21,584 bases of DNA from Okeania sp. (GCF_035285525.1 NZ_JAYKGW010000076.1:1-21584), one strand, 5' to 3'. Shown: positions 1,931-15,105, numbered from the stretch's first letter. Notes: a model not told the origin generated them from the letters alone. A program made the numbers and translations.

Positions 1931-2640
1931 ATGAACCAAGCAACAGAAACAAAGACTAATTATAGTTTTGACGCCATAAAAGAAGCTCATACTTTGTCTG
2001 GCGATCCTGAAAAGCTACAAGAATATTATGATCAATGGGCAGTAGCTTACGATGATGATGTATCTAGTGAAGAGTATATCGGCCCTAAGTACATTGTAGA
2101 TATCTTAGGAAGTCTCAAAGGTGATAATGACTTGAAAGCAATGGATGGAAGTGATAAAAATATAAAAATCCTAGATGCAGGATGCGGTAAAGGTTTAGTG
2201 GGTACTGTCCTCAAAACCAAAGGTTATCATTATGTAGATGGATGCGATCTATCTGAAGGCATGGTAGAAAAAGCTCGTTCGAGAGGTGCTTATAATGTTC
2301 TGGAAATTCGAGAGGTGCTTATAATGTTCTGGAAAGTGGAATCGACCTTACTAAAATAAATGAGGTTTATGAAGACAAGCAATATGATGCTACAGTTTGT
2401 TGTGGGGTATTTACTTTAGGTCATGTGCCTCCAACTGCCTTATTAGAACTAATCCGGATTACCAAACCAGGTGGCTGGGTAGTAGTAAGCACCCGCAAGA
2501 GCTATTACGATAGCACGAATTTCCAAGAAGTTTGCGATCGCTACCAACAAGAAGGTAAAGTCAAATTGGTCAATCATGTCAAAGATGGTCCATATATTGC
2601 TGAAGAAGGGGCACATTATTGGGGATTTGTAGTTTGCTAA
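1931..2640 (+). pseudogene. Class I SAM-dependent methyltransferase, frameshifted by a 29-bp tandem duplication
   Basis: ORFs 1931-2359 and 2425-2640 are the two halves of one gene. Motif I is ILDAGCGKGLVG, with DLSEGMVEKAR after it. The C-terminal half contains ITKPGGWVVVSTR. Deleting one 29-bp repeat unit joins them in frame (..RGAYNVLESGIDLTKINEVYEDKQYDATVCCGVFTLGHVPPTALLE..) and gives a 226-aa protein. Confidence 0.8.
2278..2335. repeat. Perfect 2 x 29-bp tandem duplication
   Basis: TTCGAGAGGTGCTTATAATGTTCTGGAAA occurs at 2278-2306 and again at 2307-2335, 29/29 identical. The flanking bases differ on both sides, so the unit is exactly 29 bp, which is not a multiple of 3. Confidence 0.95.
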
Positions 2641-3052
2641 TTAAACAACTATAATAAGCAAAAAGCAAAAGCTAGCTAACTAACCATAATATAGGTTTGG
2701 CGATCGCCTCCAGCTAGTTTGACCTTGGATGTTGATTCTAATAATTTTTTCACCCTTGAAAAGTTATGCAGCACTATTCCTAATTCTATCTATGAATAGG
2801 AGGTGGTTAATAGTGTTGTTCAGGTACTGTTTTTGGTTAGTCTTAGTATTTTTAAATTGCTCTTAATTATTTTCCTATAGGGCAAAAAAGTTAAACAGAA
2901 AAACTGATAGAATCAACTCCCTAGGTTTTACCAAAAAATTAACTATTTTCTATAAAAATAGAGTCAAGCAAAAATTAGCTAACTCTATAATTTTTGTTGC
3001 AGAAATAGGAAATATCAAATAGAAACTTGAACTATTATTAAAAATTAATTCT

Positions 3053-3982
3053 ATGAAAAGTTTGCCAATTATCTCCTTATCAGAATTAGAAAAAGCTAGT
3101 CAACAAGAAATTAAAAAATTGTATGATGTCTGCGATGAACATGGTTTTTTCTATCTGAAAGAACATGGAGTTTCTTCAGAAATAGTTAATCAAACTATTG
3201 AAGCATCCCGGAAGTTTTTTGAACTACCTGAAGATGTTAAATTAAACTACCGTCAAGATATTCAAAAAGTTTATCCCAAAACTTGTAGAGGTTACGTTCC
3301 TTTGTATGGAGAATTTCTGAATAAAGAAATTGGATTTGACCCCAAACAAGTTTTTGATTTAGGTATAGAAAGACCCCTATCTGAAGAACCCTTTACAGGT
3401 CCGACAGTTATACCTGATGATAGTGTAGCTCCTGGTTTTGCCAGTTCTCATTATCAGCTACAAAATGAAATTATGACCAAGGTAACTCCTAAATTATTAA
3501 AAGGATTAGCTTTAGCTTTAGGATTAGAAGCCAGTTGGTTCGACAAATATTTTACAGAACCGACATTAATTCAGCGGACGATATATTATCCAGCAGGGAC
3601 AGGAAAAGCAGGAAAACATACCGATAATGGCATATTTACAGTTTTAATTCAAGAATATTTTCCTGAGCCTTCTTTGAGGGTTCATACTAAAGAAGAATGG
3701 ATAGATGCTCCCTGTGTAGAAGATACGTTTGTGATTAATTTAGGGGATTTGTTACAAATGTGGACAAACAGATTATTTGTTAGTACACCCCATGAAGTAA
3801 TTCATCGTAATTCTGAAGCAACTCGAATATCAATTCCCTTTTTTGTTTATCCGAATATTGATGCAATAATTGAACCATTTGGTACTACTGAAAAAATTAG
3901 TTCTAAGGAAGTAATGTTGAAGAATTTTGTATCAATTTGGGAAACTTATGAAGGAGCAGGTAGGGCAAAAGAATTAGTTTAA
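3053..3982 (+). CDS. 2-oxoglutarate/Fe(II)-dependent oxygenase (IPNS/ACC-oxidase-like fold)
   Basis: N-terminal DIOX_N-like segment: LPIISLSEL...CDEHGFFYLKEHGV. Facial triad HTD in GKHTDNGIFTVLIQ, distal His in TPHEVIH, and the 2OG-binding RxS in TRISIPFF. Confidence 0.85.
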   Translation: MKSLPIISLSELEKASQQEIKKLYDVCDEHGFFYLKEHGVSSEIVNQTIEASRKFFELPEDVKLNYRQDIQKVYPKTCRGYVPLYGEFLNKEIGFDPKQVFDLGIERPLSEEPFTGPTVIPDDSVAPGFASSHYQLQNEIMTKVTPKLLKGLALALGLEASWFDKYFTEPTLIQRTIYYPAGTGKAGKHTDNGIFTVLIQEYFPEPSLRVHTKEEWIDAPCVEDTFVINLGDLLQMWTNRLFVSTPHEVIHRNSEATRISIPFFVYPNIDAIIEPFGTTEKISSKEVMLKNFVSIWETYEGAGRAKELV

Positions 3983-4297
3983 TTGAGGTAAACATTCAGC
4001 TATCAGCTATTGTTTTGAGAGCTGATTTATCAAGTAAATATTAAGGCGCTGAAATACTTGCTATACTTAGGAGTTTTGTTAAGTAGATTGTTATTAATTG
4101 CTAAAAGCTAGGTAATATAATGCTTTTGGCGAAGTTTACAAATAACATCATATCCGGTAGCATCGGATTTTTCGGGCATCGTGCGTGAAAATCAAGGTGG
4201 AAATGGCATAAAAGCTTCTGCCTTCAGCATAGCTGCCTTCTGCCTTCCTTCGACCAAAGTCTAATTTTATATTTTATTTGTAGAGAAAAAATGTGAA

Positions 4298-5614
4298 ATG
4301 AAAAACAAAGCTACAGTTGCTTATATTGGAACAGGTCACATGGGACGACCTATGATTTTTAAACTCTTAAAATTAGGGTATTCTGTGCAAGTTTATGATA
4401 AATATCCAGAAGCAGCTAAAACAGTGATTGAAGCAGGAGCGGTTTGGTGTAATAGTCCAAAAGAAGTTGCTCAGAATGCTGATATTGTAATCACTAATCT
4501 ACCTTTAGCCCATCATATTACAGAGAACATATTAGGGGAAAATGGAGCTTTGGTTGGAATGAAAACTGGCTCGACTTGGATTGATTTTTCAACTACAGAT
4601 TACCATAATACCAAGCATATTGCTGAAGAAGCTAGGAAAAAAGGTGTCTATAGTCTAGAAGTTCCCGTGAGTAATTTATCCCACATGGGGGTAGATTTTG
4701 GTAACATCAGTTTTTATGTTAGTGGAGATCGAGAGGGTTTTGACGCTAGTCAGGAAGTTTTGAATGACATAGGCAAAATATCCTTCTTCGTTATGAGTAA
4801 AATTGGCGAAGCACAGGCTGTAAAGCTTTTGACTAATTTACTGTGTTATACTGCTATAGTAGTTTTGGGGGAAGTGCTGGCGATCGCTAAAACCCATGAT
4901 ATTCCCTTAGATTGGATGTGGGAGTTTATGAAGGCATCCAAAGCTAATAGTTTTGCCGCAGAACAAATTTCTCCATTTATCTTTGATGGCAGTTACGACT
5001 ATTCCTGTAGTTTGGAGATTGCAGCTAAGGATAGTGATTTAACTGTGAAATTAGCTGAAGAGTTCAATTTGCCTTTACCTATAGGGAGAATTATTAAGGA
5101 TAGATATCAGCAAGCTGGAGAGGCATATAAATTCTCTGAAAATTATATCATTGTGACTAAATTAGTTGAAGATGAGAATAACTTAGATTTAAGAATACCA
5201 AGATTTACAGCACCTTCCCCTTATGGTTTAAATCGGAACTATGTTTATTCTAATAAGTTTGTTAAAGATGATTTTGGTCGGATCAAACCTTATCCCTATC
5301 AATTCAACTATGATAGACCTGAGCAAAAATTACAAGAACCCTTAGAAGAAATTGCTCAAACTTTGACAGAGTTGATGGCTTATGTCAATTACTTGGTTTT
5401 ACAGGAGTCTTATAAATTAGGTCAGAATATAGGATTAAGTCAAGATTTATTAGTTAAAGTTATTCGCTGGGGTTGTGGAAGTAGTTGGGTTTCTGATAAT
5501 GAAAATTCCTATCAACCTAATGATGAAATAATCGCCAAATTTAAAGACTATAACTTTGAGCAAAAAGTTAAGACTCCCGCTATCAATAAAATAATTTCTG
5601 TGTTAGAAAAATGA
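4298..5614 (+). CDS. NAD(P)-dependent beta-hydroxyacid dehydrogenase-like oxidoreductase (HIBADH/6PGDH family) with a long C-terminal extension, paralog A
   Basis: N-terminal Rossmann motif VAYIGTGHMGRPM. The family motif with the catalytic Lys is IGEAQAVKLLTNLL. The protein is 438 aa, against about 290 aa typical of the family. The last ~140 aa (LTELMAYVNYLVLQESYKLGQNIGLSQDLLVKVIRWGCGSSWV) look like a second copy of the all-helical C-terminal domain. Confidence 0.75.
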   Translation: MKNKATVAYIGTGHMGRPMIFKLLKLGYSVQVYDKYPEAAKTVIEAGAVWCNSPKEVAQNADIVITNLPLAHHITENILGENGALVGMKTGSTWIDFSTTDYHNTKHIAEEARKKGVYSLEVPVSNLSHMGVDFGNISFYVSGDREGFDASQEVLNDIGKISFFVMSKIGEAQAVKLLTNLLCYTAIVVLGEVLAIAKTHDIPLDWMWEFMKASKANSFAAEQISPFIFDGSYDYSCSLEIAAKDSDLTVKLAEEFNLPLPIGRIIKDRYQQAGEAYKFSENYIIVTKLVEDENNLDLRIPRFTAPSPYGLNRNYVYSNKFVKDDFGRIKPYPYQFNYDRPEQKLQEPLEEIAQTLTELMAYVNYLVLQESYKLGQNIGLSQDLLVKVIRWGCGSSWVSDNENSYQPNDEIIAKFKDYNFEQKVKTPAINKIISVLEK

Positions 5615-5665
5615 GATAAATCAAGAAATTTCATAAATGACAAAATAGAGAGATTTTAAACTAAA

Positions 5666-5770
5666 CAGAACTTACACAAACCAAGCAAGAAACCAGCTTT
5701 ATTCCGGTAACTCTTGTTTTTTAAACCAGGAAATTTCTTTGATAAAGCAGGTTTCTGTGTACGTCTTACT
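5666..5770. repeat. Degenerate MITE-like inverted-repeat element (CAGGACTTACA family)
   Basis: Left end CAGAACTTACACA (5666-5678) and right end TGTGTACGTCTTACT (5756-5770) are imperfect inverted copies. They resemble the termini of the elements at 13320, 13552 and 17178. An internal GAAACC/GGTTTC pairing is present. Confidence 0.4.
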
Positions 5771-5797
5771 AAAGTAAACTAAGCAGGATTTAAAACA

Positions 5798-6535
5798 ATG
5801 AAAAAAATATTAGCTTTGTGGGCAGTACCACGGTCAACTTCCACTGCATTTGAGCGTATGATGCGAGAAAGAGGAGATTTTGCCGTACATGATGAACCTT
5901 TTGGAAAATCTTTTTACTACTCCGAAGAACGTTGTGATACAACTCGTTATCCAGATATAAAACCAGATCCCCAATACAATTTTAGTTGTATTTTGGAAAA
6001 ATTAAAGCAAGAAAATGAACAGCAACCAGTTTTTATTAAAGATATGAGTTACCAGGTTGAACCTGTAGCTAATCAAGAGTTTTTGTCTAATTTTAATAAT
6101 AGTTTTCTGATTAGAAATCCAGAAAAAATGTTGCCTTCTCTTTTTAATAATTGGTCTGATTTTACTTTAGAAGAAACTGGATATGCTCAACTTGATAAGT
6201 TATTTGAAATGACTAAAGAAATTACTGGGAAAATACCAGTAGTAATTGATTCGGATGATTTAGTTAAAAAAACCAAGGCAACTGTTAAAACCTATTGCAA
6301 TGCTATGGATATATCATTTATTGAAGAAGCTTTAGAATGGAAATCTAAACCTCAACCTGAAATTAATCAATGGGAAGGGGGGTGGCATAATTATGTGTTA
6401 TCCAGTCAAGGATTTAAAGAAAGAACAAAAAAAGATTATGTCAAGATTGAAGATAGCGAACACCTAAAGCAAGCTTATGATTTTTGTTTACCTTATTACC
6501 AAAAACTTTATGAATATCGGTTGCAGATTGAATAA
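5798..6535 (+). CDS. Sulfotransferase-like P-loop protein, paralog A
   Basis: VPRSTSTAF near the N-terminus resembles the 5'-phosphosulfate-binding loop P-(K/R)-(S/T)-G-(S/T)-T. LIRNPEKMLPS resembles the 3'-phosphate-binding R-x-P-x(5)-S motif of PAPS-dependent sulfotransferases. It is about 50% identical by eye to ORF 11401-12138. The assignment rests on motifs only. Confidence 0.6.
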   Translation: MKKILALWAVPRSTSTAFERMMRERGDFAVHDEPFGKSFYYSEERCDTTRYPDIKPDPQYNFSCILEKLKQENEQQPVFIKDMSYQVEPVANQEFLSNFNNSFLIRNPEKMLPSLFNNWSDFTLEETGYAQLDKLFEMTKEITGKIPVVIDSDDLVKKTKATVKTYCNAMDISFIEEALEWKSKPQPEINQWEGGWHNYVLSSQGFKERTKKDYVKIEDSEHLKQAYDFCLPYYQKLYEYRLQIE

Positions 6536-6591
6536 GTTGTTGGGCATTAGTAATAGAAACCTCTAGAAAAGAGGCAATAGGCAATAGTTGA

Positions 6592-6834
6592 GCAATTAAT
6601 AATGAACAATTAATAATTAGGGTTTGCTGATTTATCGGGAACCGTAAAATTGGGAGAAAAGTATATTAAAAAATACATAGTGAAGTGATAAATGTAGACA
6701 AGATTCTTCCTCCCCATCCTCCCATAAGGGTTTCAAGAGTTCCCGATCGGGGATAGCTTAAAAAGGGAGGTTTTAAACCAGGATTGTTGAACGAATAATT
6801 ATTGAGTATCAACTCTTAATTATTAATTATTTGG
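6592..6834. repeat. Element bounded by inverted AT-rich (AATTAATAATTA) blocks
   Basis: Left block GCAATTAATAATGAACAATTAATAATTA (6592-6619). Right block GAATAATTATTGAGTATCAACTCTTAATTATTAATTATTTGG (6793-6834). TAATTATTAATT is the reverse complement of AATTAATAATTA. The interior carries TAGGGTTTGCTGA, CGGGAACCGTA and a CCTCCCC/GGGGA segment. Confidence 0.4.
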
Positions 6835-6935
6835 TAATAAAAATAATTGATAATTTATGTAATATAATTGACTTGATTTTGGATTTTTGAAGATGTCTAA
6901 TAGCTCTTGAAATTGATGATAATAAATAAAAGATA

Positions 6936-7640
6936 ATGATTAATGAGTATGTTGAAATAGCCAATTATTATGATAATCTATTGACCAGTGGATACTTTGA
7001 CTTTAATTACCTAAGCAATAGCTTGTACAATTTACTTGGTGCTAGAAGAAAAGTTTTAGATATTGGTGTAGGAACTGGATTACTTACTGAAAAAATGCTT
7101 TCCTTAGCAAACTATAAGATTGTTGGTGTTGATTTTTCTCCCCGAATGTTAGAAATTGCTAAAAAGAGATTAGTAAATTCAAATGTTAAGTTGATTTGTG
7201 AAGATATTACAGAATTTGAAACTGAGGAAAAGTTTGATGCTATAGTTTCAACTGGAGGTGTTATTTGTATATTAGAAGAAAATGGAGAATATAGAATTTC
7301 TAGTCACATAATCGATCCAGAAAAAAATAAACAGTTGCTGGGAAAGTTACACAGTCAGTTAGATCAGGGTGGGTTGTTAGCATTAGGCATTCAGGAAACT
7401 CATACTAACTATAAAAAGGAAATCAAAGATCAGATTTTTTATGAACAAAAAATTAAGCAGGAGGAAAATTATGTTGATAAGTGGTATGTGTTTTCTCAAG
7501 CTAATGGAAACATTTTGAGCGAACAATTTTGCCGTTTTTATGTTTTTGATGGACGAGAAACAAATAAAATCCTGGCTAATGCTGGATTTCAGCAAGGATA
7601 TAAGATTATTGATGGCAAGTTTTTAGTCAGCTACAAATGA
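6936..7640 (+). CDS. Class I SAM-dependent methyltransferase
   Basis: Motif I VLDIGVGTGLLTE, the post-I acidic residue in VGVDFSPRMLEIAKKR, and FDAIVSTGGV. The stop lies 10 nt before the next start, so the two genes are probably co-transcribed. Confidence 0.8.
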   Translation: MINEYVEIANYYDNLLTSGYFDFNYLSNSLYNLLGARRKVLDIGVGTGLLTEKMLSLANYKIVGVDFSPRMLEIAKKRLVNSNVKLICEDITEFETEEKFDAIVSTGGVICILEENGEYRISSHIIDPEKNKQLLGKLHSQLDQGGLLALGIQETHTNYKKEIKDQIFYEQKIKQEENYVDKWYVFSQANGNILSEQFCRFYVFDGRETNKILANAGFQQGYKIIDGKFLVSYK

Positions 7641-7650
7641 TATAGCAATT

Positions 7651-8724
7651 ATGACACAATTAATGAATGCTGTTCTTCTCACTGGGTATGGGGGACTGGA
7701 AAAATTGGAATATACCCAAGTAGCAAAACCCATTCCTCAGCAGGGAGAAGTTTTAATTAAAGTGGGTGCTTGTTCTGTTAATAATACAGACATAAACACC
7801 CGTACAGGATGGTATGCAGCAGATGAAGGGTTTCAAGAAATCCTTCAAGATACCAAGAAAAATGATGAGGAAAAATCTACAGGTTGGTCTCAGACTGGGA
7901 TACAATTTCCTAGAATCCAAGGAGCAGATATTGTGGGTAAAGTTGTAGAAATAGGGGCAGATGTTGAACCTAAATTTCTCAATCAAAGAGTAATTGTCGA
8001 TCCGTGGATTCGATTCGGAAATCTGGAAAAATATAAGTATGTAGGTAGCGAACTGAATGGGGGTTTTGCTGAATATGTTGCTATTCCTGTAGGCAACGTT
8101 TGTTTGATAAATTCATCTCTGTCAGATGTAGAATTAGCTACTGTACCTTGTTCTTATTCGACAGCCGAAAATCTCTTGACAAAAGCAAGAGTTAGTGATA
8201 AAGATACTGTTGTAATTATGGGTGCTTCTGGCGGTGTGGGGAGTTCTGCCGTTCAGTTAGCTAAAATTAGAGGAGCAACAGTTATTGCAATTGTTGGACA
8301 AAATAAAGAACATTTAGTCAAGGATCTAGGTGCCGATTATATTTATCCTCGCAACGATGAATTAGCATCAAATTTGGCAAAGCATCAAATTACTGTTTCT
8401 TTGGATGTAGTAGGTGGAGAATATTTTGAGATAATTTTTAAAGCTTTGAGTATTGGGGGACGATATGTGACAGCAGGAGCGATCGCTTCTCCTCTGGTTG
8501 AGTTAGACTTGCGAGATTTGATTTACAAAGATACAGAAATGATTGGGGCAACTCGCTTTGAATCTCAAGTTTTTCAGAATTTGCTTGAGTATATTGAAAA
8601 AGGTTTATTGAAACCTCAAGTAGCAAAAGTTTTTCCTCTGAGTCAAATCAAAGAAGCTCAGAAATTTTTTCAAAGTAAAGACTTTTTTGGAAAAGTTGTA
8701 ATTACACCTGAACAAAAATATTGA
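7651..8724 (+). CDS. Medium-chain dehydrogenase/reductase (quinone-oxidoreductase/zinc-ADH family)
   Basis: GEVLIKVGACSVNNTDINTRTG (GroES-like N-domain), GGFAEYVAIP, the NAD(P)-binding VVIMGASGGVGSSAVQLAKIRGATVIA, and a C-terminal FGKVVI. Confidence 0.85.
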   Translation: MTQLMNAVLLTGYGGLEKLEYTQVAKPIPQQGEVLIKVGACSVNNTDINTRTGWYAADEGFQEILQDTKKNDEEKSTGWSQTGIQFPRIQGADIVGKVVEIGADVEPKFLNQRVIVDPWIRFGNLEKYKYVGSELNGGFAEYVAIPVGNVCLINSSLSDVELATVPCSYSTAENLLTKARVSDKDTVVIMGASGGVGSSAVQLAKIRGATVIAIVGQNKEHLVKDLGADYIYPRNDELASNLAKHQITVSLDVVGGEYFEIIFKALSIGGRYVTAGAIASPLVELDLRDLIYKDTEMIGATRFESQVFQNLLEYIEKGLLKPQVAKVFPLSQIKEAQKFFQSKDFFGKVVITPEQKY

Positions 8725-8799
8725 CAAATGAAAACTAAGTTCTCTTGAGATGATAAAGTGACATAACATCTGAAAAAAATTAAAATTACAGAGAAAATA

Positions 8800-10113
8800 A
8801 TGACTAAACAAAAAGTTGGTTACATCGGCACTGGTGCGATGGGGAAACAAAACATCTACAAACTGCTGAAGGATGGGTATGAAGTGCAAGTTTATGATAA
8901 GTATCCAGAAGCAGCAAAACCAGTCATTGCCAAAGGGGCTATTTGGAAAGATAGTCCCAAGGAAACTGCCCAAGGGATGGATTTGGTGATTACTAATTTA
9001 CCCTTACCCCATCATGTACTAGAAAATATGTTGGGAGAAACTGGAGCAGCAGAAGGTATGAGAGAAGGTGCAACTTGGATGGATTTTTCTACAACTGACT
9101 ACCACAATACCCAACATATAGCAGGAGAAGTTGCCAAAAAAGGAATATTCAGTTTAGAATCTCCGGTGAGTAATTTATCTCACATGGGTGTAGATTTTTG
9201 TAATGTTAGTTACTATGTTAGTGGCGATCGCGAAGGCTACGATCTAAGTAAAGAAACCCTGGATGCGATGGGCAAAATTTCCTTTTTTGTGAGTAATACT
9301 ATCGGTGAAGCGCAAACAGTAAAACTCCTAACCAATTTGTTGTTTTATACACAAATGGTGACATTAGGGGAAGTTTATATGATTTGTAAAGTATATGGCA
9401 TTCCCTTGTTATGGATGTGGGAGTATATCAGACCATCTATAGGAAATAGTGTGCTGACAGAGCAAGTAAGTCCGTTTATTTTTGATGGCAGTTATGATTA
9501 TTCCTGTTCTTTAGAAATTACGGTAAAAGATACAGATTTAACAGTCAAGTTAGCTGATGAATTAAATGTTCCGTTACCGTTAGGGCGTATTGTGGAAGAG
9601 CGATATCGGGAAGCAGGGCAAAAATATGATGCCCATGATAATCATGTGAAAGTTACTAAATTAATTGAGGAAGATAATAATTTAGATTTGCGAGTTCCTG
9701 ATTTTACAGCTCCTTCTCCTTATGGTTTAGATCGGAGTTATGTTCATTCTGAAGAAAGAGTAACCGATAGTTTTGGGCGGATTAAACCTCTTCCCTATCA
9801 ACTAGAATATAAAGCACCAGAACCTTTGGAAGATGAGTATTTAATGGATATTGCTAAATCTCTGACAGATTTCATGGCTTATATCAATTACTTAGTCTTA
9901 GGGGAAGCTAACGATCTAGGGAAAGGTATGGGATTAACTGATGAGTTATTAGAAGATGTAATTCGTTGGAGTGTGGGAACCTGTTGGGTATCTGATAATA
10001 TTGATACTTATCAACCTAATCCAGAGATTGTGGAGAAAATTAAATCCTTTGATTTTTGCAGCAAGGTGAAACTTCCAGTTATGACAAAATTTTTGGCACA
10101 TCTGAGTCGTTAA
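8800..10113 (+). CDS. NAD(P)-dependent beta-hydroxyacid dehydrogenase-like oxidoreductase with a long C-terminal extension, paralog B
   Basis: VGYIGTGAMGKQN and IGEAQTVKLLTNLL. It is collinear over its full length with ORF 4298-5614 (437 vs 438 aa, roughly 60% identity by eye). Long identical runs include VQVYDKYPEAAK, FSTTDYHNT, PVSNLSHMGVDF, YVSGDREG and PFIFDGSYDYSCSLEI. Confidence 0.75.
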   Translation: MTKQKVGYIGTGAMGKQNIYKLLKDGYEVQVYDKYPEAAKPVIAKGAIWKDSPKETAQGMDLVITNLPLPHHVLENMLGETGAAEGMREGATWMDFSTTDYHNTQHIAGEVAKKGIFSLESPVSNLSHMGVDFCNVSYYVSGDREGYDLSKETLDAMGKISFFVSNTIGEAQTVKLLTNLLFYTQMVTLGEVYMICKVYGIPLLWMWEYIRPSIGNSVLTEQVSPFIFDGSYDYSCSLEITVKDTDLTVKLADELNVPLPLGRIVEERYREAGQKYDAHDNHVKVTKLIEEDNNLDLRVPDFTAPSPYGLDRSYVHSEERVTDSFGRIKPLPYQLEYKAPEPLEDEYLMDIAKSLTDFMAYINYLVLGEANDLGKGMGLTDELLEDVIRWSVGTCWVSDNIDTYQPNPEIVEKIKSFDFCSKVKLPVMTKFLAHLSR

Positions 10114-10142
10114 AGGAAGTTTTTCAACACTTTGATATTATG

Positions 10143-10178
10143 GTTTGCTCATCAAGTAATCAAAAAAATGAGCAAACT
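10143..10178 (+). terminator. Hairpin 30 nt after the stop of paralog B (candidate terminator)
   Basis: GTTTGCTCAT (10143-10152) pairs with ATGAGCAAAC (10169-10178), a perfect 10-bp stem with a 16-nt loop, followed by TATTTTA. Confidence 0.4.
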
Positions 10179-10195
10179 ATTTTAGCTCCCCCCTG

Positions 10196-10326
10196 CCCCT
10201 ATATCCCCCCTAACCCCCCTTCGTAAGGGGGGAACTGCTGAAAAAGGGGGGCACTTCAAAGTCCCCCTTTTTAAGGGGGGAACCGCTTAAAAAGTGGATA
10301 TTTCAAAGTCCCCCTTATTAAGGGGG
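10196..10326. repeat. Cluster of three C5-6/G5-6 hairpin repeats
   Basis: CCCCCC-TTCGTAA-GGGGGG (10214-10232), CCCCC-TTTTTAA-GGGGGG (10263-10280) and CCCCC-TTATTAA-GGGGG (10310-10326). The last two are each preceded by TTCAAAGT. The leader CCTAACCCCCC recurs at 21431-21441. Confidence 0.6.
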
Positions 10327-10344
10327 ATTTAGGGGGATCAAATA

Positions 10345-10476
10345 ATATCAAATCCGCATTTTATCGGTATAATTCACTTCCCGTAGGGGTTTGGTCTCCA
10401 AACCCTCTACAAACTAGGAGTTTTCGCTCTTTTTTGATAGTATTACCATTTTTTCCAAAGTAAGCGGATTTGATAT
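10345..10476. repeat. 132-bp element bounded by a perfect 13-bp inverted repeat (MITE-like)
   Basis: ATATCAAATCCGC (10345-10357) and GCGGATTTGATAT (10464-10476). There is an internal hairpin, GGGGTTTGG/CCAAACCCT (10386-10406). A solo copy of the left end, ATATCAAATCCGCTTAATTCGGTAT, occurs at 16040-16065. Confidence 0.5.
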
Positions 10477-10513
10477 AACCTCTAAGTCAACGATAAAAGG
10501 AGTATCAATAAAT

Positions 10514-11395
10514 ATGGACTTATTAGTCAATCAAATCAATCTATCCCAAGAAGAAAAACAGTTTTTTGCAGAAAATGGATTTATCAAATTGAAAAAACTG
10601 TTGACAAACGAAGCGATCGATGCCTTGCGAGAGCTAACTTCTAAAGCTACGAAAAGTCCTCCAAAGTTTTACTCTGGAGACTTTTCAAAAATGGGTTATG
10701 ACGTTGAAGAAGCGATTACACGAGATATCTATTCTTCTGCGAATTTTAAGGATGTTTTGAACCAATTAACAAATAATCGGGGAGTAGCTTTCATTCAAGG
10801 AATCGGATTTGAACTCGAACCAAATCAGAAAGGATTTAATTGGCATCACGATATTCTTTCATTTTGTTATGTCATGCCACAAGACTGGGCATATACTATG
10901 TGGATACCGCTCGATCCGATTAATATAAAAGAGCAACATGGAGGATTGTCCTATGTTTCTCGCCAAGTTCATTCTGCCCGCCAGTATTTTGACATGGTTT
11001 ACCAGTTAGTGCAACAAGAGAATATTTCTGAGTTCTCCCAGACTGAAGAGTTTAAGGATTGGAATTTTCAATATGCTTCCCCAGTTGAAACTTTTCTTCT
11101 GGATAAGAATAAAGTAGAAGATGATTTTGAAGTAGGTGATGCCCTTTTGCTAGACAAATTTGTTTGGCACAAAAGCTGCACTTTAAAAGAGGGAAAATTA
11201 CCATCAAGAATGGCTTATGTGATGCGTTTTGTCGATCGCCAAGCCCGCTACTCAAGAGTTTTTATTGAGGGAACCTACTCTATTTTAAATTCTACTACCA
11301 AAGATCTTGACAGTGATATTGGCTATCAACTAGGTAAATTTCTCCAAGATGGCGACATTATTTCTGACAACCTCGAAAGTTTAAAGAGCTACTAA
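10514..11395 (+). CDS. Phytanoyl-CoA dioxygenase (PhyH) family Fe(II)/2OG oxygenase
   Basis: N-terminal FFAENGFIKLKKLL, typical of the PhyH family. HxD is in NWHHD and the distal His in FVWHKS. An AAAGGAG Shine-Dalgarno-like sequence sits about 10 nt upstream of the ATG. Confidence 0.75.
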   Translation: MDLLVNQINLSQEEKQFFAENGFIKLKKLLTNEAIDALRELTSKATKSPPKFYSGDFSKMGYDVEEAITRDIYSSANFKDVLNQLTNNRGVAFIQGIGFELEPNQKGFNWHHDILSFCYVMPQDWAYTMWIPLDPINIKEQHGGLSYVSRQVHSARQYFDMVYQLVQQENISEFSQTEEFKDWNFQYASPVETFLLDKNKVEDDFEVGDALLLDKFVWHKSCTLKEGKLPSRMAYVMRFVDRQARYSRVFIEGTYSILNSTTKDLDSDIGYQLGKFLQDGDIISDNLESLKSY

Positions 11396-11400
11396 AAACA

Positions 11401-12138
11401 TTGAAAACCCAGAAGATATTAGTTTTATGGTCTACTTTGCGATCGACCTCTACAGCCTTTGAAACTATGATGCGACAGAGAGGGGATTTTCTGGTACTCC
11501 ATGAACCCTTTAGTCTATATTATTACAGGAGTCAGGAGAGGAAAAGCGATCGCTATGCTGAGTATAGTAGGGATTCAAACTTCAATTTTGAAACGATATT
11601 TCACAGCCTAATAGAGAAGGCTAAAAACCAGCCTTTGTTTATTAAAGATATGGCATATTATATTGTGGATAAAGCCAATCCAGAATTTTTGAATCACTTT
11701 GAACGCACTTTTCTGATTCGCGATCCAGCAAAATCTCTTCCTTCTCTATTTAGCTTATGGCCGGATTTTAGTTTAATTGAAGCTGGATATGCGCAGATGT
11801 ATCAATTATTTGAACTCACTAAAGCCTTTCTCGGAAAAAACCCTCCTGTGATTGACTCAGATGATTTAGTCCAAAAACCAGAAGCGACGGTTAAATGTTA
11901 CTGCGATGCAGTGAAAATCCAATTTATTCCTAAAGCCCTGAAATGGGAAACTAAAGTCCCCCAAGTTCCTAAATGGGTAGAAAATTGGCATACCAATTTA
12001 CAATCCACTCAAGGATTTGAACAAAGGACAAAAGATTTTCAAGTGGGTATTGAAGACAACGACTACTTAAAGAAAGCCTATGACTATTGTTTTCCTTATT
12101 ATCAAAAAATGTCTGAATATCGACTACGGATTCAATAA
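11401..12138 (+). CDS. Sulfotransferase-like P-loop protein, paralog B (TTG start)
   Basis: LRSTSTAF and LIRDPAKSLPS motifs, as in paralog A. It shares the C-terminal signature PYYQK..EYRL.I. The start is a TTG 5 nt after the PhyH stop; no in-frame ATG would retain the P-loop. This suggests translational coupling with the PhyH gene. Confidence 0.6.
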   Translation: MKTQKILVLWSTLRSTSTAFETMMRQRGDFLVLHEPFSLYYYRSQERKSDRYAEYSRDSNFNFETIFHSLIEKAKNQPLFIKDMAYYIVDKANPEFLNHFERTFLIRDPAKSLPSLFSLWPDFSLIEAGYAQMYQLFELTKAFLGKNPPVIDSDDLVQKPEATVKCYCDAVKIQFIPKALKWETKVPQVPKWVENWHTNLQSTQGFEQRTKDFQVGIEDNDYLKKAYDYCFPYYQKMSEYRLRIQ

Positions 12139-12144
12139 ATTGAC

Positions 12145-12153
12145 TGGTATAAT
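12145..12153 (+). promoter_or_regulatory. Extended -10 promoter element candidate
   Basis: TGGTATAAT matches the TGnTATAAT consensus. It lies 60 nt upstream of the ATG at 12213, in the 74-nt spacer after the sulfotransferase-like gene. Confidence 0.3.
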
Positions 12154-12212
12154 TTACTTAATTTAATGATACACAACTGATCCAAGTTATTCACTAAGAA
12201 TTAAATCCGCTG

Positions 12213-13316
12213 ATGAAAATATCTAAAATTTCCGTCTATCAAGTAACTTTACCCCTAGAACATCCTTACCGACTATCAGGTGGTAGATTGTATTTTGACA
12301 AACTTGATGCCACCATCGTTGCCATGGATACAGATGAAGGAATGCGAGGTTGGGGAGAAGGATGTCCTTGGGGTTCCACTTATTTACCCGCTTTTGCTAG
12401 AGGTATCAGAGCTGGTATTGAGGAACTTGCTCCTCAACTTATCGGACTCGATCCCAGACGTATTGATTTTATCTATCGAACAATGGATACTGCTCTCCCC
12501 GGTCATCCTTACATTAAGTCAGCTCTAGATATGGCTTGTTGGGATATTCTGGGTAAATCAACAGGTCTACCACTTTGCGAACTGTTTGGCGGTCGTCTTG
12601 ACCAAGAAATAACCATTCAAAATTCTGTTCCCACAGGTACTCCAGAAGAAATGATTGAATCCATTAAGCGGGGTCAAGCAAAAGGGGAAACTATCCATAC
12701 CTGTAAAATAGGAGCAGATGTCGCTTTAGATATTGAGAGGATTCAAGCGATCGGTGCTTATTTGCCAGCTAATGAAACTGCAACTTTTGATGTGAATAGA
12801 GCTTGGTTGGTAGATGATGGTATGCGGGTAATGAATTCGGTAAAAGAACCAATTTTGTATTTTGAACAACCTTGTGAAACTTATGAAGAGTGTTTACAGT
12901 TACGGAAACTGACTAATCATCCGATTATTTTAGATGAATGTATTCAAGCTTATGGTCATGTGGTTCGCGCTCAAGCTGACCGTGCTTGTGAAGCTATTGG
13001 ATTAAAGATTGGTCGGGTAGGAGGATTAACTAAAGCCAAGCGTATTCGAGATTTTTGTGTGGAAACGGGAATTAAGATGAATATTGAAGTTACTGGGGGA
13101 AGTGTGATTGGAGATTCTGGAGCAGTTCATCTCGCTCAGAGTACCCCACTAACTCACTTGCGGGCAACTTGGTTATGCCATGAAATGTTGACTGTGGATA
13201 CGGCTACGGGTGGTGCCCGGAATCATGGGGGTAAGACTTTGGCGCCAGATGCTCCAGGTTTGGGTGTGGAGCCAATAATGGATGTTTTAGGTGAAGCGAT
13301 CGCTGTGTATGAATAA
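12213..13316 (+). CDS. Enolase-superfamily enzyme, mandelate racemase/muconate lactonizing enzyme (MR/MLE) family
   Basis: Capping domain: WGEGCPWGSTYLPA and PGHPYIKSALDMACWDILGK. Barrel domain: KIGADVALDIERIQAI, metal ligands in FDVNRAW, YFEQPC and ILDECI, and a general-base Lys in GLKIGRVGGLTKA. Confidence 0.85.
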   Translation: MKISKISVYQVTLPLEHPYRLSGGRLYFDKLDATIVAMDTDEGMRGWGEGCPWGSTYLPAFARGIRAGIEELAPQLIGLDPRRIDFIYRTMDTALPGHPYIKSALDMACWDILGKSTGLPLCELFGGRLDQEITIQNSVPTGTPEEMIESIKRGQAKGETIHTCKIGADVALDIERIQAIGAYLPANETATFDVNRAWLVDDGMRVMNSVKEPILYFEQPCETYEECLQLRKLTNHPIILDECIQAYGHVVRAQADRACEAIGLKIGRVGGLTKAKRIRDFCVETGIKMNIEVTGGSVIGDSGAVHLAQSTPLTHLRATWLCHEMLTVDTATGGARNHGGKTLAPDAPGLGVEPIMDVLGEAIAVYE

Positions 13317-13319
13317 AAT

Positions 13320-13411
13320 CAGGACTTACAGGGGAGGTACTATGTATGGAGTTCAAAAACTATTGCGCAATAGTTTTTGACGCTATGTCTAGGGTCGCTG
13401 GGTAAGTCCTA
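13320..13411. repeat. MITE-like element, copy A (TIR CAGGACTTAC/GTAAGTCCT)
   Basis: CAGGACTTAC (13320-13329) and GTAAGTCCT (13402-13410) are inverted termini. The core is a perfect 24-nt palindrome, AAAAACTATTGC|GCAATAGTTTTT (13355-13378). The element starts 4 nt after the MR/MLE stop codon. Confidence 0.65.
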
Positions 13412-13551
13412 ATATAGCAATGTGCGCATTTAATATTTACAAATCACAGGAACTGTCGAATAGCTAAAAGTCTTATGTTATAAGCAATTTATTCTTTCTG
13501 TTCCCACCTTTTCTGTTCCCTGTTCCCTGCGCACAGGGCTATAAATAGACT

Positions 13552-13654
13552 AGGATTTACACCGGAGGAACCCGGTTTCTAGGATAAATCGTTGCTTTGA
13601 ACAGTAATAATCTACCCTCGTACCGGGTTTTTGGGTTCGCCTGTGTAAGTCCTG
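13552..13654. repeat. MITE-like element, related family (TIR AGGATTTACAC/GTGTAAGTCCTG)
   Basis: The termini at 13552-13562 and 13643-13654 are inverted copies and resemble the copy A termini. Internal pairing is AACCCGGT/ACCGGGTT. Confidence 0.5.
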
Positions 13655-13666
13655 TAGACATTTACC

Positions 13667-13816
13667 GAATAATTAATAGTTAATAATTATTCATTCAAGA
13701 ACTCACGGCTGGAAGCCTCCCCTATCCTAGGGGATAAGTCAAAAATTTTCCTTTTAGTCAATCCTCTTCTTTGAAGAAGGGGTAATTATTAATTATTAAT
13801 TGTTGATTATTAATTG
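13667..13816. repeat. Element bounded by inverted AT-rich (TAATTATTAATT) blocks
   Basis: Left block GAATAATTAATAGTTAATAATTATTCATTC (13667-13696). Right block TAATTATTAATTATTAATTGTTGATTATTAATTG (13783-13816). The interior carries CCTCCCCTATCCTAGGGGA and a CTTCTTTGAAGAAG palindrome. The architecture matches 6592-6834 and 17468-17812. Confidence 0.4.
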
Positions 13817-13929
13817 CTGAATGTGAGATGATAATATTATGTCTAACTTATTAGCCAGAACAGGGAAGTTTTATGGAACCTCCCTACAAGGTTTTGGTTA
13901 TGGTGATGTGGTTTATTAAGAAAGAAAAG

Positions 13930-13938
13930 TGCTATAAT
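13930..13938 (+). promoter_or_regulatory. Extended -10 promoter element candidate
   Basis: TGCTATAAT matches TGnTATAAT and lies 39 nt upstream of the ATG at 13977. Confidence 0.3.
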
Positions 13939-13976
13939 ATCAAGCCATTAAGATTATCAGTTTAATATTTTTTTAT

Positions 13977-14675
13977 ATGCACAAAAACAAAGAACATCCA
14001 GAAACAAATTATAATGATTTTCCACACTGGATTTTTGGTGCTGAAATAGCTAACAGATTTACTGATGAGGCAGAAAAACATATTCCTGATTATTGGAGAG
14101 TAATAGAGCTAACAACTAATATATTGAAAGATAATTTATCGAAAGATAGTAATATTATAGATGTAGGTTGTGCGAGTGGAAATACATTATTATATTTATA
14201 CAAACAAGGTTTCCCAAATTTATTTGGAATAGATTCTTCTCAAGAGATGTTAAAAGTAGCTGGAAAAAATCTTAGTCAAGTTGAGAAAAATTTTCCCTCA
14301 AGACTTTTTTACTCACAAACATTTGTAGAAAATATGACTTTTAATGCTATTATTTGTAACTGGACTCTTCACTTTATTCAAGAAAGACAAGAATACTTAA
14401 AAGCTATTTTTGATTCTTTAGTTAGTCAGGGATTATTTATTCTGACAGAAAAAACTATTCAAAGTCAAATAATAGAAAATCAATATATAGTTTTTAAACA
14501 AAATAAAGGATTAAGTAATGAAGAAATTGAACGTAAGAAAAAACAATTAAAAGGTGTATTAAATCCCTGGTCTATCAGAGCAAATCTAGAGTTACTAACT
14601 CAAACTGGTTTTTCTCAAATAGAAATCGTAAATGCTAGACTAGGATTTGTAACTTTTTTGTGTATAAAACCCTAA
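13977..14675 (+). CDS. Class I SAM-dependent methyltransferase, CmoA-like
   Basis: Motif I IIDVGCASGNTL. The N-terminal segment FGAEIANRFTDEAEKHIPDYWRVIE resembles the CmoA-type F-D-x-x-A-x-x-F-x(5)-S-V-P-G-Y. NWTLHFI parallels the CmoA motif NFTLQF. The gene is very AT-rich compared with its neighbours. Confidence 0.7.
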   Translation: MHKNKEHPETNYNDFPHWIFGAEIANRFTDEAEKHIPDYWRVIELTTNILKDNLSKDSNIIDVGCASGNTLLYLYKQGFPNLFGIDSSQEMLKVAGKNLSQVEKNFPSRLFYSQTFVENMTFNAIICNWTLHFIQERQEYLKAIFDSLVSQGLFILTEKTIQSQIIENQYIVFKQNKGLSNEEIERKKKQLKGVLNPWSIRANLELLTQTGFSQIEIVNARLGFVTFLCIKP

Positions 14676-14752
14676 GTAAAAAACAGAATTTTTTTTCAAG
14701 GTAGACTTTTTTTGACAACCAACATTATTATCCAATCTTAACTTAGAGAGAA

Positions 14753-14962: not shown

Positions 14963-14965
14963 CTG

Positions 14966-15047: not shown

Positions 15048-15105
15048 TATCCTCGGTCTGCCTAACATCCTATTTTTCGGGAACCGTACTTTTTTAACCT
15101 TTTTA

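What the first reader, a model, noticed from the sequence alone, without database searches (positions are those of the whole stretch)
4298..12138. Duplicated two-gene module: long dehydrogenase followed by a sulfotransferase-like protein, present twice
ORFs 4298-5614 and 5798-6535 are paralogous to ORFs 8800-10113 and 11401-12138, at roughly 60% and 50% amino-acid identity by eye. The order and strand are the same in both. The second copy has a PhyH dioxygenase inserted between the partners. Retention of both diverged copies in one locus suggests two parallel or successive reduce-then-sulfate steps, for example on two positions or two related substrates, rather than a recent redundant duplication.
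Basis: partly seen in the sequence, partly recalled or inferred. Interest (0 to 1): 0.65.

Follow-up and report, generated by a model that had tools for sequence, protein, structure and literature searches.

The report
Two dehydrogenases, two sulfotransferases, one cluster
A cyanobacterial gene cluster for an unknown small sulfated metabolite carries two old copies each of a dehydrogenase and a sulfotransferase, but they are not a duplicated two-gene unit: only the first pair travels together, and the second sulfotransferase is tied to a hydroxylase instead.

Summary
The two long dehydrogenases are 63% identical with no gaps, and the two Sulfotransfer_5 proteins are 54% identical. Order and strand match, and a PhyH-like gene lies between the second pair.

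All four genes look functional. They keep every family-invariant residue, and dN/dS is 0.08-0.26. The A/B divergence is old (dS about 1.5).

The "duplicated module" reading is only partly right. In 65 related loci the long dehydrogenase belongs to a conserved core with a methyltransferase and an EFE-like oxygenase, often also an MDR reductase and an enolase-superfamily enzyme. This core usually has no sulfotransferase. Dehydrogenase and sulfotransferase copy numbers vary independently.

DH-A and ST-A are a co-inherited adjacent pair in Okeania, Dapis and relatives (distance ratio about 1, r=0.81). DH-B and ST-B are not (r=0.33). ST-B has no homologue above 70% identity, starts 5 bases after the hydroxylase stop, and its subfamily is never next to a dehydrogenase.

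The recurring logic is hydroxylase or enolase-type enzyme followed by sulfotransferase, not reductase followed by sulfotransferase. The product is unknown; a methylated, hydroxylated, O-sulfated betaine-like acid is my best guess.

The core methyltransferase is frameshifted by a 29-bp tandem duplication.

The parts
1931..2640 (+). Core class I SAM methyltransferase MTa, the orthologue of the 226-aa gene in Dapis L001. Here it is frameshifted by a perfect 29-bp tandem duplication (2278-2306 and 2307-2335).
   Evidence: tblastn shows aa 1-125 in one frame and aa 117-226 in another. The repeat is confirmed. It is absent from the orthologues in Dapis and L050. The closest solved structure is METTL27.
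3053..3982 (+). Fe(II)/2OG oxygenase of the IPNS/EFE branch (OXY), a member of the universal core.
   Evidence: Pfam hits DIOX_N and 2OG-FeII_Oxy. The best solved structures are the reconstructed ethylene-forming enzyme 9ovh (5e-41) and PaIPNS 6jyv. It accompanies the long DH in 51 of 65 loci.
4298..5614 (+). DH-A: a long (438 aa) beta-hydroxyacid-dehydrogenase-like enzyme of the A-type lineage.
   Evidence: The AF2 model has pLDDT 93; the N-terminal ~295 aa match 1vpd (TM 0.89) and the last ~140 aa match nothing. It falls in the A-type clade with 98% bootstrap. dN/dS is 0.20-0.26.
5798..6535 (+). ST-A: a Sulfotransfer_5 protein of subfamily ST-II, co-inherited with DH-A.
   Evidence: Its orthologues lie directly after DH-A in L008, L009 and L010. 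It co-diverges with DH-A. The AF2 fold is closest to CurM ST and TPST. All conserved residues are kept.
6936..7640 (+). Second SAM methyltransferase MTb (234 aa). It ends 10 bases before the MDR start.
   Evidence: Pfam methyltransferase hits. Orthologues of 82-87% identity occur in L009, L025, L027, L050 and L052.
7651..8724 (+). Medium-chain (zinc-ADH/quinone-oxidoreductase type) reductase MDR, a frequent core member.
   Evidence: Pfam hits ADH_N and ADH_zinc_N. The best solved structure is 4j6f, a putative alcohol dehydrogenase (1e-76). It occurs in 25 of 65 loci.
8800..10113 (+). DH-B: a long (437 aa) dehydrogenase of the B-type lineage, part of the MTb-MDR-DH-B block.
   Evidence: It falls in the B-type clade with 100% bootstrap. 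Orthologues are 92-94% identical, and dN/dS is 0.08-0.10.
10514..11395 (+). Fe/2OG hydroxylase related to the radical halogenases BtnX and CurA-Hal, but with an H-x-D iron motif.
   Evidence: PDB hits 9pv1 (3e-31) and 3nnf (1e-22). In the alignment the window reads WHHD where the halogenases read WHVG. The residues aligned with BtnX Ser120 and Arg248, which bind the substrate carboxylate, are the same here. The BtnX G117D mutant makes alpha-hydroxy acids (PMC13489965).
11401..12138 (+). ST-B: a Sulfotransfer_5 protein of subfamily ST-III. It has a TTG start 5 bases after the hydroxylase stop.
   Evidence: The nearest homologue among 5.8 billion proteins is 70% identical, and the metagenome scan found none. 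The N-terminal PAPS-loop residues are encoded upstream of the first ATG. All conserved residues are kept.
12213..13316 (+). Enolase-superfamily enzyme (ENOSF) of the cis-3-hydroxy-L-proline dehydratase / hydroxyproline-betaine epimerase group.
   Evidence: NCBIfam HProlDhtase scores 379 bits, below the 500 cut-off. PDB hits are 2qdd, 3eez and 4mgg, then 2pmq/4h2h/4e8g. It is the commonest gene directly upstream of an ST (10 of 21).
13977..14675 (+). Third SAM methyltransferase MTc (CmoA-like), probably the last gene of the cluster.
   Evidence: Pfam and NCBIfam hits. Orthologues of 79-85% identity occur in L009, L022, L025, L026, L050 and L052.

Best explanation
Positions 1931-14675 form one same-strand biosynthetic gene cluster of an uncharacterised but widespread family.

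- **Core.** The conserved core is a long NAD-type beta-hydroxyacid-dehydrogenase-like enzyme, a class I methyltransferase and an EFE-like Fe/2OG oxygenase. An MDR reductase and an enolase-superfamily enzyme usually accompany them. Sulfotransferases, extra methyltransferases, a BtnX-like hydroxylase and exporters are variable tailoring genes.
- **Origin of the copies.** The two DH and two ST copies do not come from duplication of a DH-ST module. DH-A plus ST-A is a co-inherited two-gene cassette shared with Okeania, Dapis and Hydrocoleum. DH-B belongs to the MTb-MDR-DH-B core block. ST-B belongs to a different sulfotransferase subfamily with its own much deeper history. It is translationally coupled to the hydroxylase and lies next to the enolase-type gene. 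The window therefore looks like a mosaic of two cluster variants.
- **Inferred mechanism.** Both STs are PAPS-dependent O-sulfotransferases acting on hydroxyl groups of a small carboxylate. ST-B most likely sulfates the hydroxyl installed by the adjacent hydroxylase. ST-A most likely sulfates a hydroxyl made by DH-A or by the EFE-like oxygenase.
- **Inferred product (weaker).** The product is probably a methylated, hydroxylated, mono- or di-O-sulfated betaine-like (proline- or carnitine-type) acid that is exported or used as an osmolyte.

Shown: the paralogy, intactness, selection, phylogeny, co-divergence pattern and context statistics. Inferred: the substrates, the order of steps and the product.
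For: - Paralogy and domains.
- Core composition, from 65 loci with the long DH: MTa in 44, OXY in 51, ENOSF in 39, MDR in 25, a stand-alone ST in only 17.
- DH tree: cyanobacterial DH monophyletic at 100%, A-type clade 98%, B-type clade 100%. Each type is the only DH in many clusters that otherwise have the same gene set.
- ST tree: three subfamilies. ST-A falls in ST-II and ST-B in ST-III (100%).
- Co-divergence: DH-A against ST-II gives r=0.81 with ratio about 1. DH-B against ST-III gives r=0.33 with ratio 5-7 for the window.
- dS against L026: DH-B 0.38, hydroxylase 0.41, ENOSF 0.40, but ST-B 1.13.
- ST neighbours: ENOSF upstream in 10, OXY in 5 and DH in 3 of 21. Second-OXY/ST-III cassettes occur in L016, L025, L027 and L028.
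- ST-B starts 5 bases after the hydroxylase stop.
- Sulfotransferase chemistry: the fold is nearest CurM ST and TPST. All conserved residues are kept. Pseudomonas versions of the cluster fuse this ST to an A-T-R reductase module and add an APS kinase.
- Betaine-like substrate hints:
  - OpuA-type ABC transporters lie next to the cluster in L003, L016 and L073 and next to many proteobacterial loci.
  - The Pseudomonas clusters carry a GbcA-like Rieske oxygenase, and Moorena L004 and Dapis L052 carry a CaiB-like CoA-transferase.
  - ENOSF is nearest the hydroxyproline-betaine epimerase / c3LHyp dehydratase group.
  - The cluster has three to four methyltransferases.
Against: - No experiment or paper links any of these genes to a product.
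- The trees are neighbour-joining on modest samples. ST-II has only 42% bootstrap support.
- Many loci are cut by contig ends, so the counts of loci without an ST are upper bounds.
- ST-B and DH-B both have L026 as nearest relative (98% and 51% bootstrap). A common origin followed by very fast ST-B evolution is therefore not excluded, although the threefold higher dS argues against rate alone.
- The core methyltransferase is frameshifted here. The pathway may not run in this organism, or the contig may carry an assembly error.
- The betaine-type product rests only on neighbourhood hints.
Confidence: 0.6

Rival explanations
1. An ancestral DH-ST two-gene module was duplicated within the locus and both copies were kept. 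They carry out two reduce-then-sulfate steps on two positions or on two related substrates. The hydroxylase was inserted later into the second copy.
For: Both genes are paralogous and lie in the same order on the same strand. All four are intact and under purifying selection. DH-A and ST-A adjacency is conserved in L008, L009 and L010 and they co-diverge. DH-B and ST-B both have L026 as nearest relative.
Against: DH and ST copy numbers vary independently, and the window is the only locus with two of each. No ST-III gene is adjacent to a dehydrogenase in any locus. The B pair shows no co-divergence (r=0.33), and ST-B has dS 1.13 against 0.38 for DH-B. L022 and L050 have both ST types with a single DH. 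A-type and B-type DH are each the sole DH of otherwise equivalent clusters and differ at only 9 mostly conservative diagnostic sites.
Confidence: 0.15
2. The cluster is redundant or decaying. Two variants merged by lateral transfer, the extra DH and ST are functionally redundant leftovers, and the pathway is being lost in this genome.
For: The universal core methyltransferase is frameshifted by a 29-bp tandem duplication. DH-A evolves under weaker constraint (dN/dS 0.20-0.26) than DH-B (0.08-0.10). The diagnostic sites give no sign of functional divergence between DH-A and DH-B. Gene order is highly plastic among relatives.
Against: Apart from MTa, every gene is a full-length ORF. All four focal genes have dN/dS well below 1 and keep all invariant residues. 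The frameshift is a single very recent event with 95% identity downstream and could be an assembly artefact. DH-A/ST-A pairs persist in at least four other genomes.
Confidence: 0.12
3. Sulfation serves as activation, not decoration. As with the CurM sulfotransferase in curacin synthesis, the ST sulfates a beta-hydroxyl made by the beta-hydroxyacid dehydrogenase. The enolase-superfamily enzyme then removes the alpha-proton and expels sulfate, giving an unsaturated or cyclised product with no sulfate in it.
For: The nearest structural match of the ST model is the CurM ST domain. ENOSF is the commonest gene next to an ST (10 of 21), and it belongs to a group that carries out beta-elimination on 3-hydroxyproline. 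The DH is of the beta-hydroxyacid type.
Against: The TM-scores to CurM ST are low (0.42-0.47), and TPSTs and SULTs score similarly. ENOSF and DH occur without any ST in most loci, so they do not need sulfate activation. The Pseudomonas fusion of ST to an A-T-R reductase, next to an aldehyde reductase, fits sulfation of a terminal alcohol better.
Confidence: 0.1

Closest known systems
Beta-hydroxyacid dehydrogenases (tartronate semialdehyde reductase GarR 1vpd, HIBADH, sulfolactaldehyde reductase YihU)
   Same: The N-terminal ~295 residues have the same two-domain fold (TM 0.8-0.9 to the target). The GxGxxG loop, the PVS substrate motif and the catalytic Lys176/Asn180 are kept. Asp34 after strand 2 points to NAD(H) use.
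   Different: These proteins are about 140 residues longer. The extra C-terminal domain is conserved and confidently modelled but has no PDB match. The family has an invariant PVSNLSHMGVDF motif where the known enzymes have PVSGG. All NCBIfam equivalog scores fall far below their cut-offs. The substrate is unknown.
PAPS-dependent sulfotransferases (CurM ST domain 4gbm, tyrosylprotein sulfotransferases, cytosolic SULTs)
   Same: The predicted fold and P-loop-like N-terminal motif (W-x3-R-S-x-S-T) match, as does an R-x-P motif at the usual 3'-phosphate position. An APS kinase sits in the homologous Pseudomonas clusters.
   Different: There is no sequence-level match to any solved structure, and TM-scores are only about 0.4-0.55. 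The Pfam family PF19798 has no characterised member that I could find. The acceptor substrate is unknown.
BtnX biotin halogenase and CurA halogenase domain (Fe/2OG radical halogenases)
   Same: They are clear sequence homologues (E 3e-31 and 1e-22). The second iron His is conserved, and so are the residues aligned with the BtnX carboxylate-binding Ser120 and Arg248.
   Different: The window protein has H-x-D where the halogenases have H-x-G, so it should hydroxylate rather than halogenate. The BtnX G117D mutant does exactly this.
Ethylene-forming enzyme / PaIPNS branch of Fe/2OG oxygenases
   Same: These are the best sequence matches for the cluster oxygenase (9ovh 5e-41, 6jyv 3e-37).
   Different: The match is moderate in score, at 144 and 132 bits. 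PaIPNS itself has no known function. Nothing here shows ethylene formation or arginine hydroxylation.
cis-3-hydroxy-L-proline dehydratase / 4-hydroxyproline-betaine 2-epimerase group of the enolase superfamily
   Same: The cluster's enolase-type enzyme aligns over its full length with NCBIfam HProlDhtase and with 2qdd, 3eez and 4mgg.
   Different: The score is 379 bits against a cut-off of 500, so it is not an equivalog. The substrate here is untested.

Membership tests
Tandemly duplicated two-gene (DH-ST) module | Both genes of copy 1 are paralogous to the corresponding genes of copy 2, in the same order and on the same strand. | tested here: met
   63% and 54% identity, with the same order and strand.
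Tandemly duplicated two-gene (DH-ST) module | The two genes of each copy share one history: they co-diverge across relatives. | tested here: not met
   Pair A co-diverges (r=0.81, ratio about 1). Pair B does not (r=0.33, ratio 5-7; ST-B dS 1.13 against DH-B 0.38 versus L026).
Tandemly duplicated two-gene (DH-ST) module | DH-ST adjacency is conserved for both copies in related loci. | tested here: not met
   DH-A/ST-A adjacency occurs in L008, L009 and L010. None of the 8 ST-III genes is next to a DH. DH and ST copy numbers vary independently.
Beta-hydroxyacid dehydrogenase family | Rossmann GxGxxG loop, substrate-binding Ser motif, catalytic Lys, and an all-helical NAD_binding_11 domain. | tested here: met
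   Pfam hits both domains. G11/G13/G16, S125, K176 and N180 are invariant in 88 sequences that include both copies. The fold matches 1vpd.
Beta-hydroxyacid dehydrogenase family | Membership of a named equivalog (HIBADH, tartronate semialdehyde reductase, L-threonate dehydrogenase or SLA reductase). | tested here: not met
   The best NCBIfam scores are 105-152 bits against cut-offs of 292-397. There is also an extra 140-aa C-terminal domain.
PAPS-dependent sulfotransferases | Sulfotransferase fold with the 5'-phosphosulfate loop and the 3'-phosphate motif. | tested here: met
   Both copies score above the PF19798 cut-off. The R-S-x-S-T loop and the R106-x-P108 motif are invariant and present in both. 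The top fold hits are sulfotransferases.
PAPS-dependent sulfotransferases | Sulfate transfer from PAPS to a defined acceptor. | not testable with these tools
   The only support is context: an APS kinase in the Pseudomonas homologue clusters.
Fe/2OG radical halogenases (BtnX/CurA-Hal type) | An H-x-G/A ... H iron site that leaves room for halide. | tested here: not met
   The window protein reads W-H-H-D at the aligned position (H-x-D), the hydroxylase type.
DMSP transamination-pathway genes (DsyGD type) | A DsyG methyltransferase fused or adjacent to a DsyD domain of Pfam PF04115. | tested here: not met
   No PF04115 domain appears in the window or in related loci. The oxidative enzyme here is of the DIOX_N/2OG-FeII_Oxy type.

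The most novel reading that the evidence does not exclude
The cluster family (long DH, methyltransferase, EFE-like oxygenase, plus enolase-type and MDR enzymes) makes a previously unknown class of N-methylated hydroxy-acid osmolyte. In Trichodesmium/Okeania-like marine cyanobacteria it would be converted by two non-orthologous Sulfotransfer_5 enzymes into a mono- or di-O-sulfated betaine, a functional analogue of choline-O-sulfate. This would give the first substrates for Pfam PF19798 and for the long-DH family, and would add a new organic sulfur compound to the ocean's inventory.
Probability: 0.2. Interest if true: 0.7.

Novelty: new variant of a known kind. Interest (0 to 1): 0.45.

Why it matters
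All the enzyme families here are familiar, and gene duplication inside biosynthetic clusters is common. The paralogy itself is therefore ordinary.

What is new is the context:
- A gene cluster family found in marine filamentous cyanobacteria (including symbionts such as Richelia, Prochloron and Hormoscilla), in giant sulfur bacteria, and in Pseudomonas and Mesorhizobium. I could find no literature on it.
- A distinct long dehydrogenase family whose extra domain has no known structure.
- An uncharacterised sulfotransferase family.

If the product is a sulfated osmolyte or signal in bloom-forming cyanobacteria, it bears on marine sulfur and carbon cycling.

The comparison also gives a practical rule for dissecting such clusters. 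In this family, sulfotransferases pair with hydroxylases or enolase-type enzymes, not with the dehydrogenase.

Tried and rejected
- **DMSP synthesis.** I asked whether the DH-methyltransferase-oxygenase triad could be the reductase, S-methyltransferase and oxidative decarboxylase of the DMSP pathway. I rejected it as unsupported. The known DsyD domain is PF04115, not a 2OG oxygenase. A beta-hydroxyacid dehydrogenase is also an odd fit for a 2-oxo-acid reductase.
- **Halogenase reading of the PhyH-like gene.** Rejected because of the H-x-D motif.
- **Sequence search of ST-A against solved structures.** It returned only chance antibody hits.
- **Close ST-B orthologues.** The metagenome scan found none. 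The last protein search gave 70% identity as the best hit.
- **Plasmid search with DH-A.** No match.
- **Promoter and terminator scan.** Counts equal those of the shuffled controls, so it says nothing about sub-operons.
- **Leftover gene fragments in the intergenic gaps.** None found.
- **Literature.** Ten searches found no paper on this cluster, on PF19798 function or on the long DH.
- **A-domain of the Pseudomonas ST::A-T-R fusion.** It lacks a recognisable FDxS motif and has an aromatic-rich stretch there instead. I did not interpret this further.

Full report
**1. Observation**

The window has a run of same-strand ORFs. DH-A (4298-5614, 438 aa) and DH-B (8800-10113, 437 aa) align end to end without gaps at 63% identity. 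ST-A (5798-6535) and ST-B (11401-12138), both 245 aa, are 54% identical.

Both dehydrogenases carry NAD_binding_2 and NAD_binding_11, which mark the beta-hydroxyacid dehydrogenase type. About 150 further residues have no Pfam match. Both sulfotransferases match Sulfotransfer_5, PF19798.

The gene between DH-B and ST-B (10514-11395) hits Pfam PhyH only weakly.

**2. The genes around them**

From 1931 to 14675 the + strand encodes, in order:
- a class I methyltransferase (MTa);
- a DIOX_N/2OG-FeII oxygenase (OXY);
- DH-A and ST-A;
- a second methyltransferase (MTb);
- an MDR reductase;
- DH-B;
- the PhyH-like protein;
- ST-B;
- an enolase-superfamily enzyme (ENOSF);
- a CmoA-like methyltransferase (MTc).

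The tight junctions are MTb-MDR (10 bases), MDR-DH-B (75 bases), hydroxylase-ST-B (5 bases) and ST-B-ENOSF (74 bases). DH-B and the hydroxylase are 400 bases apart.

Closest solved relatives:
- OXY is nearest a reconstructed ethylene-forming enzyme and PaIPNS, a protein of unknown function.
- ENOSF is nearest the cis-3-hydroxy-L-proline dehydratase / hydroxyproline-betaine epimerase group. It scores below the equivalog cut-off.
- The PhyH-like protein is nearest the radical halogenases BtnX and CurA-Hal. It has H-x-D where they have H-x-G, and it shares the residues aligned with the BtnX carboxylate-binding Ser and Arg. The BtnX G117D mutant makes alpha-hydroxy acids. I therefore read this protein as a hydroxylase of a free carboxylic acid.

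**3. Are the copies functional?**

Both dehydrogenases keep every residue that is invariant across 88 family members. These include the GxGxxG loop, Ser125, Lys176, Asn180 and the family-specific PVSNLSHMGVDF motif.

Both sulfotransferases keep every residue conserved in at least 95% of 141 family members.

ST-B needs its TTG start at 11401. The conserved PAPS-loop residues lie upstream of the first ATG, and the database gene call (P0241, 223 aa) misses them.

dN/dS against orthologues:

| Gene | dN/dS |
|---|---|
| DH-A | 0.20-0.26 |
| ST-A | 0.15-0.24 |
| DH-B | 0.08-0.10 |
| ST-B | 0.18-0.25 |

Between the A and B copies dS is about 1.5, which is saturated. The copies are old and none is decaying.

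AlphaFold models are confident, with pLDDT 93 for both proteins. The first ~295 residues of the DH superpose on tartronate semialdehyde reductase, and the last ~140 match nothing in the PDB. The ST model matches sulfotransferases best: CurM ST, TPST and SULTs, with modest TM-scores.

**4. Comparative context**

The long DH family has about 200 members in the protein collection. They come from cyanobacteria, Thiomargarita, Pseudomonas, Marinobacterium and others. A genome scan returned 68 loci, and I annotated them with the window's proteins.

Among 65 non-redundant loci with a long DH, the accompanying genes were:

| Gene | Loci |
|---|---|
| OXY | 51 |
| MTa | 44 |
| ENOSF | 39 |
| MDR | 25 |
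| stand-alone ST | 17 |

- Mesorhizobium and Aminobacter usually carry DH-MTa-OXY without a sulfotransferase.
- Pseudomonas carries MTa-OXY-DH-ENOSF plus a GbcA-like Rieske oxygenase. It also has the sulfotransferase fused to an adenylation-thiolation-reductase module, an aldehyde reductase and an APS kinase.
- Nostocales clusters sit next to an OpuA-type betaine ABC transporter.

The dehydrogenase is therefore a core enzyme and the sulfotransferase a variable addition.

**5. Is there a duplicated module?**

The cyanobacterial DHs are monophyletic (100% bootstrap) and split in two:
- The A-type clade (98%) holds window DH-A, Okeania hirsuta, Dapis, Okeania SIO2C9 and the Nostocales.
- The B-type clade (100%) holds Moorena, Okeania, Hormoscilla, Xenococcaceae, Leptolyngbya and others.

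Each type is the only DH in many clusters that otherwise share the same gene set. The two types differ at only 9 clade-diagnostic positions. These are mostly conservative and lie outside the catalytic motifs.

The sulfotransferases fall into three subfamilies. ST-A is in ST-II and ST-B is in ST-III (100%).

Copy numbers vary independently:

| Loci | Long DH | Stand-alone ST |
|---|---|---|
| 3 | 2 | 1 |
| 4 | 1 | 2 |
| 10 | 1 | 1 |
| 48 | 1 | 0 |
| window only | 2 | 2 |

L050 and L022 have almost the window's gene order, including both ST types, but a single DH.

Pairwise distances of DH-A-type and ST-II genes from the same loci correlate (r=0.81) with a ratio near 1. For DH-B-type and ST-III, r is 0.33, and the window's ST-B is 5-7 times more diverged than its DH-B.

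Against Okeania sp. SIO3B5 (L026), dS is 0.38 for DH-B, 0.41 for the hydroxylase and 0.40 for ENOSF, but 1.13 for ST-B.

ST-B has no homologue above 70% identity among 5.8 billion proteins, and none turned up in the metagenome scan.

No ST-III gene is adjacent to a DH. The gene directly upstream of an ST is ENOSF in 10 cases, OXY in 5 and DH in 3, out of 21. Second-OXY/ST-III cassettes recur in L016, L025, L027 and L028.

DH-A plus ST-A is therefore a genuine co-inherited pair. DH-B and ST-B are not a pair.

**6. Mechanism**

Shown:
- The genes belong to known enzyme families.
- They are intact.
- Their histories and neighbourhoods are as described above.

Inferred:
- Both STs transfer sulfate from PAPS to hydroxyl groups. 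Support comes from the motifs, the fold and the APS kinase in the Pseudomonas version.
- ST-B most likely acts on the hydroxyl made by the hydroxylase it is coupled to.
- ST-A most likely acts on a hydroxyl produced by DH-A or by OXY. OXY is its direct neighbour in L022 and L050.

Inferred more weakly: the substrate is a small methylated carboxylate of betaine type. The hints are the OpuA transporters, the GbcA-like Rieske oxygenase, the CaiB-like CoA-transferase, the proline-betaine-type enolase enzyme and the three to four methyltransferases. The invariant Asp34 after strand 2 suggests the DH uses NAD(H), going by general knowledge of this fold.

I found no paper on this cluster.

**7. Rivals**

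- The module-duplication model keeps some weight. Pair A behaves as a unit, and both B genes have L026 as nearest relative.
- A decay or redundancy model is raised by the frameshift in MTa, which is a perfect 29-bp tandem duplication absent from the orthologues, and by the weaker constraint on DH-A.
- A leaving-group model, with sulfation followed by elimination through the enolase-type enzyme as in CurM, fits the ENOSF-ST adjacency. It does not fit the many ST-free clusters.
- A DMSP-pathway idea was dropped.

**8. Limits**

- The trees are neighbour-joining with Kimura distances, not maximum likelihood.
- Many loci end at contig borders.
- dS is saturated for the deepest comparisons.
- The window appears to be a whole 21.6-kb contig (row P0032), so an assembly error in MTa cannot be excluded.

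**9. Verdict**

The paralogy is real and old, and all four genes look functional. The "duplicated reduce-then-sulfate module" is only partly right. The locus is better read as a mosaic cluster in which one DH-ST cassette joined a core that already had its own DH, plus a separately acquired hydroxylase-linked ST. The cluster family and its product are uncharacterised, and that is where the interest lies.

Noticed in passing
window 2278-2335 (within 1931-2640): A perfect 29-bp tandem duplication (TTCGAGAGGTGCTTATAATGTTCTGGAAA, twice) frameshifts the core methyltransferase MTa. It is absent from the orthologues in Dapis L001 and L050. Either the gene was inactivated very recently or the contig carries an assembly artefact.
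   Followed up: yes
window 10514-11395: The PhyH-like protein is a close relative of the radical halogenases BtnX and CurA-Hal. It has H-x-D where they have H-x-G, and it shares the residues aligned with the BtnX carboxylate-binding Ser and Arg. It looks like a natural hydroxylase counterpart of BtnX.
   Followed up: partly
window 11401-11466: ST-B must start at the TTG at 11401, 5 bases after the upstream stop codon. The database gene call (P0241, 223 aa) starts at an internal ATG and lacks the conserved PAPS-binding loop.
   Followed up: yes
window 5180-5614 and 9680-10113 (about residues 295-438 of both DHs): The long DH family has a conserved C-terminal domain of about 140 residues. It is confidently modelled, includes invariant N294, G310, D324, R328 and G375, and has no match among solved structures.
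   Followed up: partly
L006 15618-19697, and L041, L043, L044, L046-L048, L054: In Pseudomonas the same sulfotransferase family is fused to an adenylation-thiolation-reductase module (1359 aa). It sits beside an Ahr-like aldehyde reductase and an APS kinase, in a cluster with MTa, OXY, the long DH, ENOSF and a GbcA-like Rieske oxygenase. The adenylation domain lacks a recognisable FDxS motif.
   Followed up: partly
L057, L059, L061-L066, L074 (Mesorhizobium, Aminobacter): A minimal DH-MTa-OXY triad occurs without any sulfotransferase, often near OpuA-like ABC transporter genes. This may be the ancestral core of the pathway.
   Followed up: partly
L016 7220-8997, L025 13063-14825, L027 14948-16750, L028 5747-8450: A second copy of the EFE-like oxygenase lies directly next to an ST-III sulfotransferase in four loci. 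This is a recurrent hydroxylase-sulfotransferase cassette.
   Followed up: partly
L069 9998-14577 (Hormoscilla sp. GM7CHS1pb): The DH, ENOSF and OXY genes are each split into two or three ORFs. The cause is either pseudogenes in a sponge symbiont or indel errors in a long-read assembly.
   Followed up: no
window 16138-17028 (-), 18215-19069 (+), 19910-21424 (+): Downstream genes are an ABC-2 permease, an Asp/Asn beta-hydroxylase-like oxygenase and a GMC oxidoreductase. Long non-coding gaps separate them (14676-16137 and 17029-18214). I did not examine whether they belong to the cluster.
   Followed up: no
L024 381-7496, L034 10545-16571, L038 3992-11057: In Leptolyngbya PCC 7375, Thiomargarita and a Microcoleus MAG the core genes lie next to very large NRPS/PKS-like ORFs. 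The core product may be a building block there.
   Followed up: no
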